Shown here: positions 16,904-17,274 of the stretch, piece by piece
Numbering within the stretch: the first letter of the stretch is position 1
How the letters are laid out: every line of letters starts with the position of its first letter
Assembly: GCA_000146465.1 (NCBI GenBank)
Contig: CP001945.1
DNA length: 64,000 nt
Strand: one strand, 5' to 3'
Notes under the pieces: model-generated
What the model was told of the DNA's origin: nothing
Databases searched by the model: none
Seen by the model: only the letters and a program-made list of their open reading frames with translations
Program-made: the position numbers and the translations under genes

Positions 16904-17274
16904 ATGACAGTCGTGCAATACATCCTACTCAGGAGTGACTTGAGCTTTTCAAGAGGCGCAGTAATTGCCCAGGCCTGCCATTCAAGCGTCTATTCCATCG
17001 AAAAATACAGAAACCACCCAGACACAATAGAGTATCTAGAAAACATAGAATCTATGGCAAAGATAATTCTGAAGGTAAGTGGATGGATTAATTTTAGATT
17101 AAGGAAAAGGATGTGGAAGAGATAGCCGGATATCTTACTTCGAAAGGCATAGACCATACTGTTTGGATTGAAGATCCGGAAAGAATACCAACATGCATAT
17201 CTCTCAGGCCGTACAAAAGAAGCCATATACCTGATGTTGTTGATTATTTAGCAAGGTTTGGGCTATTCCGTTGA
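16904..17274 (+). CDS. PTRHD1-like peptidyl-tRNA hydrolase-fold protein, encoded in two exons. Exon 1 is 16904..17074, a 23-nt intron spans 17075..17097, and exon 2 is 17098..17274.
   Basis: Exon 1 encodes [29 protein letters not shown]...[14 protein letters not shown]. Exon 2 encodes [58 protein letters not shown]. Together they align along the whole length with PTRHD1 (LVQYVVVRSDL..GAVVAQCCHA...YLRELDSMHKVVLEA...[38 protein letters not shown]). The intron is GTAAGTGGATGGATTAATTTTAG. Without splicing, the ORF stops after 73 aa inside the intron-extended frame. Confidence 0.7.
17075..17097 (+). other. Spliceosomal micro-intron of 23 nt, GTAAGT...TTAATTTTAG.
   Basis: A canonical GTAAGT 5' splice site sits directly after codon 57. 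A TTAAT branch-like motif and the TTTTAG 3' splice site follow. Removal restores the frame into the conserved C-terminal half of the PTRHD1 homologue. Confidence 0.65.

What the first reader, a model, noticed from the sequence alone, without database searches (positions are those of the whole stretch)
16904..17274. 23-nt spliceosomal micro-intron (GTAAGT...TTTTAG) splitting a PTRHD1-like peptidyl-tRNA hydrolase gene
The ORF at 16904 terminates after 73 aa, but its first 57 residues match the N-terminal half of PTRHD1 ([21 protein letters not shown]...[14 protein letters not shown]). At 17075 the sequence continues with GTAAGTGGATGGATTAATTTTAG. This is a canonical 5' splice site, an AT-rich body with a TTAAT branch-like element, and a TTTTAG acceptor, 23 nt in total. 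Removing it joins the exon 1 frame exactly to an exon 2 that encodes the conserved PTRHD1 C-terminal half (..[23 protein letters not shown]...[11 protein letters not shown]). Introns of this 23-nt class with this motif are the hallmark of Encephalitozoon-type microsporidia. They are very rare: E. cuniculi has a few dozen, mostly in ribosomal-protein genes. An intron in a PTH2-fold gene, together with a retained but shrunken PRP8 in the same window, would be a useful new test case for the minimal spliceosome.
Basis: partly seen in the sequence, partly recalled or inferred. Interest (0 to 1): 0.75.

Follow-up and report, generated by a model that had tools for sequence, protein, structure and literature searches.

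The report
Known 23-nt intron in microsporidian PTRHD1
The 23-base interruption is a real spliceosomal micro-intron in the PTRHD1-like peptidyl-tRNA hydrolase gene of Encephalitozoon intestinalis, but public annotations of this and sister species already record it, so it is an ordinary, known feature.

Summary
Window 17075-17097 reads GTAAGTGGATGGATTAATTTTAG (23 nt). Removing it joins 57 codons (16904-17074) to 58 codons plus a stop (17098-17274). The resulting 115-aa protein covers the whole Pfam PTH2 profile at 67 bits and folds confidently (pLDDT 93) as a PTH2 domain. Its nearest named relatives outside the genus are called PTRHD1.

It is not new. The spliced product is 100% identical over its full length to the NCBI protein 'peptidyl-tRNA hydrolase PTH2 [Encephalitozoon intestinalis ATCC 50506]' (AHL30088.1). 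The deposited orthologues in E. cuniculi (ECU04_0485), E. hellem, E. romaleae and Ordospora colligata are reproduced only by removing a 23-, 23-, 23- or 35-nt GT-AG intron at the same codon boundary.

Across five Encephalitozoon genomes the splice signals are fixed. Every one of the six middle bases varies. The exons vary mainly at third codon positions.

Two things seen here were not found in the papers held:
- The intron sits at the same phase-0 position as the single 2.8-kb intron of mammalian PTRHD1 and of introns in many environmental eukaryotes, so its position is probably ancestral.
- Hamiltosporidium tvaerminnensis has an apparently unannotated 19-nt GT-AG interruption at the same site.

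No transcript data could be examined here.

The parts
16904..17074 (+). Exon 1 of the PTRHD1-like gene (ATG plus 56 codons, ending ...AKIILK)
   Evidence: ORF list and translation. Alone it matches PTH2 profile positions 2-57 at 41 bits. It is 57 codons long in all five Encephalitozoon genomes and in Hamiltosporidium.
17075..17097 (+). Spliceosomal micro-intron, 23 nt, phase 0, GT-AG
   Evidence: Sequence. It is the only GT..AG removal that reproduces the deposited protein. The length of 23 nt is identical in five Encephalitozoon genomes.
17075..17081 (+). Extended 5' splice site GTAAGTG
   Evidence: Invariant (0 of 7 columns vary) in five Encephalitozoon genomes and also present in O. colligata.
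17082..17087 (+). Unconstrained spacer of the intron (GATGGA)
   Evidence: All 6 columns vary among five Encephalitozoon genomes. This is what is expected of non-coding sequence lying between splice signals.
17088..17097 (+). Branch-point-like YTAAT followed by TTYAG, the 3' splice site (TTAATTTTAG)
   Evidence: Only 2 of 10 columns vary among five Encephalitozoon genomes. O. colligata has GTAATTTAG and Hamiltosporidium has CTAATTAG. That the branch adenosine is near 17091 is an inference by analogy with yeast UACUAAC, not a test.
17098..17274 (+). Exon 2 (58 codons from IKEKDVEE... to ...RFGLFR, plus TGA)
   Evidence: Translation. It matches PTH2 profile positions 62-112. It aligns without a gap across the junction to intronless orthologues.
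16894..16903 (+). Conserved GCCC(C)TT motif just upstream of the start codon
   Evidence: GCCCTT followed by 3 nt and ATG is conserved in all five Encephalitozoon genomes. Reading it as a microsporidian 'CCC-like' transcription or start signal rests on memory of the literature and was not tested.
50053..56031 (-). PRP8 (context only): the spliceosome core protein, 1992 aa
   Evidence: Pfam PRO8NT, PROCN, RRM_4, U5_2-snRNA_bdg, U6-snRNA_bdg, PRP8_domainIV and PROCT all score above their cut-offs.

Best explanation
The window is from Encephalitozoon intestinalis (the region orthologous to E. cuniculi chromosome IV). Positions 16904-17274 are a two-exon gene for a 115-aa PTRHD1-type (PTH2-fold) putative peptidyl-tRNA hydrolase. 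A 23-nt U2-type GT-AG intron in phase 0 interrupts it between codons 57 and 58.

The reduced microsporidian spliceosome, whose PRP8 is encoded in the same window, would recognise three signals: the fixed 5' site GTAAGTG, a YTAAT branch site about 6 nt from the 3' end, and the terminal AG. Excising exactly 17075-17097 yields the full-length protein. Transcripts that keep the intron stop after 73 codons.

The gene structure, the homology and the conservation are shown here. The splicing chemistry and its efficiency are inferred. By analogy with E. cuniculi, where short introns are spliced at below 20% on average, many transcripts may stay unspliced.

The intron's position is probably inherited from an ancient eukaryotic intron and shrunk to near the minimum size. 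Mammalian PTRHD1 and many environmental eukaryotic homologues carry an intron at the homologous phase-0 site.
For: (1) The spliced product covers PTH2 profile positions 2-112 of 115 at 67 bits, against a cut-off of 23.

(2) It is 100% identical over 100% of its length to the NCBI protein 'peptidyl-tRNA hydrolase PTH2 [E. intestinalis ATCC 50506]'. The accessions are AHL30088.1 and KAL7345887.1, KAL7347828.1 and KAL7349795.1.

(3) The orthologous genes span 371, 368, 368 and 386 nt for products of 115, 114, 114 and 116 aa. In each species exactly one GT..AG removal, at the same codon boundary, reproduces the deposited protein: 23, 23, 23 and 35 nt. Every unspliced reading stops early, at 60-73 aa.

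(4) Synteny is conserved: ABC transporter (minus strand), PTH2 (plus), HECT (plus).

(5) Selection signature across five Encephalitozoon genomes: codon positions 1, 2 and 3 vary in 36%, 25% and 71% of columns. In the intron, GTAAGTG varies at 0 of 7 columns, the middle at 6 of 6, and the last ten bases at 2 of 10.

(6) Intronless orthologues align without a gap across K57|I58, and I58 is invariant. These are environmental contigs of unnamed organisms, presumably microsporidia. Nosema granulosis also has an intronless gene and aligns without a gap at the junction in the 12-sequence alignment.

(7) The AlphaFold model of the spliced protein has pLDDT 93.2 and pTM 0.86. The junction lies at the end of a core beta-strand. 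The top Foldseek PDB hits are all PTH2-family chains, with TM-scores up to 0.83.

(8) PTRHD1 subfamily: the nearest named relatives are called PTRHD1 in Nosema, Vairimorpha, Rozella and a bat. Identity to the bat protein is 41% at E=4e-26.

(9) Ancient position: the bat PTRHD1 gene has a single 2777-nt phase-0 intron at E84|A85. In the BLASTP alignment this pairs with K57|I58, with no gap between query residue 15 and the junction. At least 15 distinct environmental loci lose homology at exactly this codon and continue with GTRAGT-type 5' sites. Full exon joins were reconstructed for L063 and L070. Canonical solutions at the same position exist for L059, L068 and L073, though they were not the top-scoring ones.

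[quoted passage not shown] ECU04_0485 is expressed at about 10-14 FPKM.
Against: No transcript data for E. intestinalis, or for this specific intron, could be inspected. The papers that list the E. cuniculi intron set gene by gene (Lee et al. 2010; Pombert et al. 2012) are not held, so I could not confirm that ECU04_0485 is among the 37 introns validated by RNA-seq. Public annotations of these genomes had introns added by hand (PMC10158259), so an annotation is not independent experimental proof. Expression of the E. cuniculi orthologue is low. Desjardins et al. [quoted passage not shown] It is unclear whether that is the same gene; if it is, their survey did not count the Encephalitozoon intron.
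Confidence: 0.95

Rival explanations
1. The gene is a pseudogene, or the 23 bases are an assembly or sequencing artefact that causes a frameshift. On this reading the two halves are no longer expressed as one protein.
For: The unspliced ORF stops after 73 aa. Automatic gene calls on raw assemblies report only the 73-aa or 78-aa N-terminal half (P0008 and P0011).
Against: The same insert, with the same length and the same GT..AG ends, is present in independent assemblies of at least six species or strains. Both exons keep a coding pattern of substitution: third positions vary in 71% of columns against 25-36% for first and second positions. Only the splice signals are conserved inside the insert. 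A decaying pseudogene would show neither pattern.
Confidence: 0.02
2. The two reading frames are joined during translation by a programmed ribosomal frameshift downstream of 17097, without RNA splicing.
For: The exon 1 frame stays open until 17125 and the exon 2 frame is open from 17098, so a shift somewhere in 17098-17122 is formally possible.
Against: It would insert at least 8 extra residues (VSGWINFR...), which no homologue has. Intronless orthologues align without a gap at the junction. In E. hellem, E. romaleae and the Logan Encephalitozoon sp. (L013) the exon 1 frame stops only 3 codons into the insert (...KVSG*), so no overlap window exists there. What is conserved is GTAAGTG and YTAAT..AG, which are splice signals, not a slippery site.
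Confidence: 0.01
3. The intron is real but is spliced inefficiently. Its main effect would then be to hold down the level of functional PTRHD1 mRNA, with most transcripts encoding only a truncated 73-aa product. This is a reading of its consequence, not a rival to its identity as an intron.
For: In E. cuniculi, 30 of 37 introns had fewer than 50% spliced transcripts and 22 had fewer than 20% (PMC3629993). Short introns averaged below 20% (PMC6349667). ECU04_0485 is expressed at a low level.
Against: No measurement exists here for this intron or for E. intestinalis. Low efficiency may simply be tolerated noise rather than regulation. Several related contigs carry intronless copies of the gene, so the intron is dispensable.
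Confidence: 0.5

Closest known systems
Annotated intron of ECU04_0485 (E. cuniculi GB-M1; CCI73924.1 / NP_001402481.1) and of the E. intestinalis ATCC 50506 gene encoding AHL30088.1
   Same: It is the same gene in the same syntenic slot (ABC transporter / PTH2 / HECT), with the same codon boundary, the same 23-nt length and the same GTAAGTG...YTAATTTYAG signals. The E. intestinalis protein is identical to the conceptual product of the window.
   Different: For E. intestinalis nothing differs: this is that feature. Against E. cuniculi, only the six spacer bases and one pyrimidine in the branch region differ.
Short spliceosomal introns of Encephalitozoon cuniculi (36-37 introns, 22-76 nt; Katinka 2001, Lee 2010, Grisdale 2013)
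   Same: [quoted passage not shown]
   Different: It lies mid-gene (codon 57 of 115) in a gene that is not a ribosomal-protein gene. In this it resembles the 20 introns added in 2010 rather than the original ribosomal-protein set, whose introns sit near the 5' end (PMC6349667).
The single intron of mammalian PTRHD1 (bat Sturnira hondurensis, L015; the human exon 1/2 junction)
   Same: The position and phase are homologous: bat E84|A85 pairs with microsporidian K57|I58 in a BLASTP alignment with no gap between query residue 15 and the junction. A human primer described as specific to the exon 1/2 junction spans the same codons (PMC13023423).
   Different: It is 2777 nt long rather than 23 nt, with a GTGAGG 5' site. 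The mammalian protein also has a 22-aa N-terminal extension and small insertions and deletions elsewhere.
Canonical archaeal/eukaryotic Pth2 (e.g. AF2095 3erj, human PTRH2/Bit1 1q7s)
   Same: The fold is the same, with TM-scores of 0.75-0.83, and it falls in the same Pfam family, PF01981.
   Different: Identity is only 18-24%. It scores well below the NCBIfam Pth2 equivalog cut-offs: 36 against 82 bits, and 35 against 126 bits. It belongs to the PTRHD1 branch. To my knowledge the enzymatic activity of that branch is not firmly established.

Membership tests
Encephalitozoon-type short spliceosomal (U2-type GT-AG) intron | GT...AG boundaries | tested here: met
   GT at 17075-17076 and AG at 17096-17097. 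The same boundaries are present in all the orthologues.
Encephalitozoon-type short spliceosomal (U2-type GT-AG) intron | Strict extended 5' splice site (GTAAGT) | tested here: met
   GTAAGTG is invariant in five Encephalitozoon genomes and in O. colligata. The strictness of the motif is described in PMC3629993.
Encephalitozoon-type short spliceosomal (U2-type GT-AG) intron | Branch-point motif close to the 3' AG | tested here: met
   YTAAT lies 4 nt upstream of the terminal AG and is conserved; only 2 of the last 10 columns vary. The published sequence logo could not be read, so the match to the published consensus is judged from memory.
Encephalitozoon-type short spliceosomal (U2-type GT-AG) intron | Length within the 22-76 nt range | tested here: met
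   23 nt. The range is taken from PMC3629993.
Encephalitozoon-type short spliceosomal (U2-type GT-AG) intron | Removal restores a continuous, homologous reading frame, and retention truncates it | tested here: met
Encephalitozoon-type short spliceosomal (U2-type GT-AG) intron | Excision observed in transcripts | not testable with these tools
   No read data are available here. Grisdale 2013 reports that all annotated E. cuniculi introns are spliced, but the per-gene list is in figures that are not held.
PTH2 domain family (Pfam PF01981) | Score above the Pfam gathering threshold over the full domain | tested here: met
   67 bits against a cut-off of 23, covering profile positions 2-112 of 115.
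PTH2 domain family (Pfam PF01981) | PTH2 alpha/beta fold | tested here: met
   The model has pLDDT 93.2. The top 14 PDB chain hits are all PTH2-family entries, with TM-scores up to 0.83.
PTRHD1 subfamily | Closer to proteins named PTRHD1 than to canonical Pth2/PTRH2 | tested here: met
   The named relatives are called PTRHD1 in Nosema, Vairimorpha, Rozella, Ecytonucleospora and a bat. Identity to bat PTRHD1 is 41% at E=4e-26, against 18% to human Bit1/PTRH2 in the fold search. The protein scores below the NCBIfam Pth2 equivalog cut-offs. The names are those given by the source databases and are not experimental.
PTRHD1 subfamily | Peptidyl-tRNA or aminoacyl-tRNA hydrolase activity | not testable with these tools
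   This needs a biochemical assay. The conserved A-Q-A-C-H motif is present. Cys52 and His53 of the equivalent human motif are a reported disease-mutation site and a predicted ligand-binding site (PMC13023423).
   Seven PRP8 Pfam domains occur in order in the 1992-aa ORF at 50053-56031 on the minus strand. 'Shrunken' is relative to yeast Prp8 (about 2,400 aa) and human PRPF8 (about 2,300 aa); those lengths are from my own knowledge.

The most novel reading that the evidence does not exclude
The 23-nt intron is not a quirk of this lineage. It would be the shrunken survivor of an ancient eukaryotic intron whose phase-0 position is shared with the single intron of mammalian PTRHD1 and with many environmental eukaryotes. 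On this reading it has been retained in the smallest known eukaryotic genomes while related microsporidia such as Nosema lost it. The same site in Hamiltosporidium tvaerminnensis holds an apparently unannotated 19-nt GT-AG interruption; if spliced, that would be shorter than any E. cuniculi intron in the reported 22-76 nt range.
Probability: 0.65. Interest if true: 0.3.

Novelty: already known. Interest (0 to 1): 0.15.

Why it matters
As posed, the finding adds nothing new. The intron and its spliced product are already in GenBank and RefSeq for E. intestinalis and its relatives. It belongs to the well-described class of about 37 Encephalitozoon micro-introns that are already used to study the minimal spliceosome.

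The modest added value lies in two side results:
- The intron's position is shared with animals. This gives a clean example of an ancient intron compressed about 100-fold, from roughly 2.8 kb to 23 nt, rather than lost.
- The natural series of 35, 23 and 19(?) nt versions, plus intronless orthologues, at one homologous site could serve as a compact comparative test of minimum intron size in reduced spliceosomes.

Tried and rejected
- **Papers not held.** I looked for the papers that list the E. cuniculi introns gene by gene (Lee et al. 2010; Pombert et al. 2012). Neither is held.
- **Literature searches.** Full-text searches for ECU04_0485, Eint_040450, EROM_040450 and EHEL_040450 found nothing. 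The supplements of Grisdale 2013 held here give only FPKM values and figure captions, not the intron list. The Whelan 2018 supplements are not held.
- **Exact look-up.** The look-up of the E. intestinalis protein's encoding contig returned 'not on record', so the identity of the window rests on the 100% protein match and on synteny.
- **Other introns in the window.** The pattern scans found no second convincing micro-intron. The five other loose hits are 41-80 nt long; from their positions against the ORF list they appear to lie inside long ORFs.
- **ARAGORN.** It found no tRNA, although Rfam finds one that contains an intron.
- **Splice-site choice in metagenome loci.** Picking splice sites by alignment score alone was ambiguous. 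I replaced it with mapping the codon aligned to query residue 57 and reading the adjacent bases. 'GT' alone is not diagnostic there, because intronless homologues often continue with a valine codon. Only loci where homology stops and a GTRAGT-like site follows were counted.
- **Rejected readings.** Pseudogene, assembly error and ribosomal frameshift were considered and rejected; see the rival explanations.

Full report
**Observation.** An ORF starts with ATG at 16904 and, read straight through, stops after 73 codons at 17125. At 17075-17097 the DNA reads GTAAGTGGATGGATTAATTTTAG (23 nt). Exon 1 (16904-17074) is 57 codons. Exon 2 (17098-17274) is 58 codons plus TGA. The joined product is 115 aa: [115 protein letters not shown]. 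One quoted residue was misread: it is GIDHTVW, not NIDHTVW.

**Is it more than chance?** The motif on its own is not. A loose version of it occurs once in the window, against 0.48 matches expected, and 42 of 100 shuffles gave at least one. The position is what matters. Exon 1 alone matches Pfam PTH2 (PF01981) profile positions 2-57 at 41 bits. The downstream ORF matches positions 62-112 at 18 bits. The spliced protein matches positions 2-112 of 115 at 67 bits, where the gathering cut-off is 23. So the 23 bases sit exactly at the frame break between the two halves of a single domain.

**Identity of the window and prior knowledge.** The spliced protein is 100% identical over 100% of its length to the NCBI protein 'peptidyl-tRNA hydrolase PTH2 [Encephalitozoon intestinalis ATCC 50506]'. 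Its accessions are AHL30088.1 and three entries from further isolates, KAL7345887.1, KAL7347828.1 and KAL7349795.1. The window is therefore E. intestinalis, and the intron is already part of the public annotation.

The orthologues are:
- ECU04_0485 in E. cuniculi (CCI73924.1, NP_001402481.1 and others)
- an E. hellem protein
- EROM_040450 in E. romaleae
- CWI42_040940 in Ordospora colligata

Their genes span 371, 368, 368 and 386 nt for products of 115, 114, 114 and 116 aa. That leaves 23, 23, 23 and 35 nt unaccounted for. An exhaustive search of GT..AG removals shows that in each species exactly one removal, at the same codon boundary, reproduces the deposited protein. Every unspliced reading stops after 60-73 codons. 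A further Encephalitozoon sp. assembled from SRR23946965 (L013) has GTAAGTGGATAACCTAATTTCAG at the same place, and there the automatic gene call is only the truncated 78-aa ORF. Synteny is conserved throughout: a 555-aa ABC transporter on the minus strand, then the PTH2 gene, then a 746-aa HECT ligase.

**Signature of selection.** Across five Encephalitozoon genomes, codon positions 1, 2 and 3 of the exons vary in 36%, 25% and 71% of columns. Within the intron:
- GTAAGTG is invariant (0 of 7 columns vary).
- The six spacer bases vary at every column (6 of 6).
- The last ten bases, YTAATTTYAG, vary at only two.

The length is fixed at 23 nt. This is the pattern expected of a spliced intron held close to the minimum size. 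It is not the pattern of a pseudogene or of a translated insert.

**The protein.** Intronless orthologues align without a gap across K57|I58, and I58 is invariant. They come from environmental contigs of unnamed organisms, presumably microsporidia: P0005, P0009 and P0010. Nosema granulosis (P0012) also has an intronless gene and aligns without a gap at the junction in the wider alignment. An AlphaFold2 model built from a nine-sequence alignment is confident (mean pLDDT 93.2, pTM 0.86), and the junction lies at the end of a core beta-strand. Its best PDB matches by Foldseek are all PTH2-family chains (AF2095, TA0108, MJ0051, Bit1/PTRH2, the Sulfolobus Pth2), with TM-scores of 0.72-0.83.

A profile search shows that the nearest named relatives outside the Encephalitozoon/Ordospora group are called PTRHD1, in Nosema granulosis, Vairimorpha necatrix, Ecytonucleospora, Rozella and a bat. 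Identity to bat PTRHD1 is 41% at E=4e-26. The protein scores far below the NCBIfam cut-offs for canonical Pth2. Enzymatic activity was not tested and cannot be tested here.

**Mechanism.**

*Shown here:* the gene structure, the homology, the conservation of the splice signals, and the presence of a complete though short PRP8 in the same window (1992 aa, seven PRP8 domains, 50053-56031 on the minus strand).

[quoted passage not shown] All annotated ones were confirmed as spliced by RNA-seq. Most are spliced poorly: 30 of 37 had fewer than 50% spliced transcripts and 22 of 37 had fewer than 20% (PMC3629993; PMC6349667). ECU04_0485 appears in that study's expression table at 9.9-13.6 FPKM.

*Inferred:* the E. 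intestinalis spliceosome excises 17075-17097 using GTAAGTG, a branch adenosine in TTAAT (about 17091) and the terminal AG. A substantial fraction of transcripts may keep the intron and encode only a 73-aa fragment.

I could not confirm that ECU04_0485 is one of the 37 validated introns, because the per-gene lists are in figures or in papers that are not held.

**Rivals.** A pseudogene or an assembly error is excluded by the recurrence of the insert in independent assemblies and by the selection pattern. Programmed frameshifting is excluded for three reasons. In three of the genomes (E. hellem, E. romaleae and L013) the exon 1 frame stops three codons into the insert. No homologue carries the extra residues it would add. 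What is conserved is a pair of splice signals, not a slippery site.

**Beyond the finding: an ancient position.** The bat PTRHD1 gene (L015) has exactly one intron, 2777 nt long and in phase 0, between E84 and A85. In the BLASTP alignment this boundary pairs with K57|I58 of the microsporidian protein, with no gap between query residue 15 and the junction. A human qPCR primer described as specific to the exon 1/2 junction (reverse complement GTCCTCGAGGCCCCAGAT, encoding VLEAPD) covers the same codons (PMC13023423).

A scan of metagenome contigs returned 80 homologous loci. About half read straight through the site. At least 15 distinct loci lose homology at exactly the codon aligned to residue 57 and continue with GTAAGT, GTGAGT or GTAAGA-type 5' sites. 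Complete exon joins at that position were reconstructed for L063 (311 nt) and L070 (260 nt). Canonical solutions at the same position exist for L059 (55 nt), L068 (409 nt) and L073 (229 nt), though alignment score alone ranked them second or third.

With roughly 345 possible positions and phases in a gene this size, exact coincidence by chance is unlikely. Parallel insertion at an AG|G proto-splice site is not excluded. I rate shared ancestry at about 0.65. Desjardins et al. [quoted passage not shown] I could not determine whether that is the same gene.

**Beyond the finding: Hamiltosporidium.** In H. tvaerminnensis (L012) the gene is annotated as a 61-aa protein. Exon 1 is again 57 codons. 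It is followed by GTATTTTATTCCTAATTAG (19 nt) and then an in-frame C-terminal half...CWTEDNEKTCVALKPY...KFKLY*. This species has short introns confirmed by Iso-Seq, with a mean length of 28 bp (PMC10542269). A 19-nt intron is therefore plausible but unproven.

**Verdict.** Interest is low. The shared ancient position and the possible 19-nt homologue are small additions.

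Noticed in passing
L012:1001-1360 (Hamiltosporidium tvaerminnensis PITJ01000486.1): The PTRHD1 orthologue is annotated only as a 61-aa protein. 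Exon 1 is 57 codons, followed by GTATTTTATTCCTAATTAG (19 nt, L012:1172-1190) and an in-frame conserved C-terminal half. This is a putative unannotated 19-nt intron at the same site as the Encephalitozoon intron, with a non-consensus 5' site (GTATTT).
   Followed up: partly
L015:501-3700 (bat PTRHD1) and loci L059, L063, L064, L067, L068, L070, L071, L073-L075, L077, L078, L081, L082, L092, L094: The single intron of mammalian PTRHD1 (2777 nt, phase 0, E84|A85), and introns in many environmental eukaryotic homologues, lie at exactly the position homologous to the microsporidian 23-nt intron. The position therefore looks ancestral.
   Followed up: partly
L008, L009/L010, L011, L014: Homologues at 44-59% identity have uninterrupted genes in a different gene neighbourhood. 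They are Nosema granulosis and three environmental contigs of unnamed organisms, presumably microsporidia. The intron has therefore been lost in some lineages, or the locus has moved.
   Followed up: partly
window 13092-13206 (+): Rfam finds a tRNA (57 bits) spanning 115 nt, with an insertion of about 42 nt directly after the anticodon loop. The anticodon reads UAU, suggesting tRNA-Ile. ARAGORN, as run here, missed it. This looks like an intron-containing tRNA gene.
   Followed up: partly
window 50053-56031 (-): PRP8 is an uninterrupted 1992-aa ORF with all seven PRP8 Pfam domains. It is roughly 300-400 aa shorter than the yeast and human proteins; that comparison is from memory.
   Followed up: partly
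window 36736-43857 (+): A 2373-aa ORF whose only Pfam signal is a VPS13 N-terminal region, at 59 bits and below the 80-bit cut-off. It may be a strongly shortened VPS13-like lipid-transfer protein.
   Followed up: no
window 16894-16903 (+), and the equivalent positions in L001, L004, L005, L013: A GCCC(C)TT motif ending 4 nt before the ATG is conserved in all five Encephalitozoon genomes. It may be the 'CCC-like' signal described for microsporidian start sites; that attribution is from memory.
   Followed up: no
P0008 (73 aa) and P0011 (78 aa), from Logan assemblies: Automatic gene callers on raw assemblies report only the truncated, unspliced N-terminal ORF of this gene. Micro-introns of this kind are systematically missed unless they are added by hand, as was done for the telomere-to-telomere Encephalitozoon annotations (PMC10158259).
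   Followed up: no
L084-L091, L095 (metagenome contigs): In this group of homologues, homology ends two to three codons earlier (...SMHKV) and is followed by GTAATT. This may be a slightly shifted intron position (intron sliding) or a different intron.
   Followed up: no
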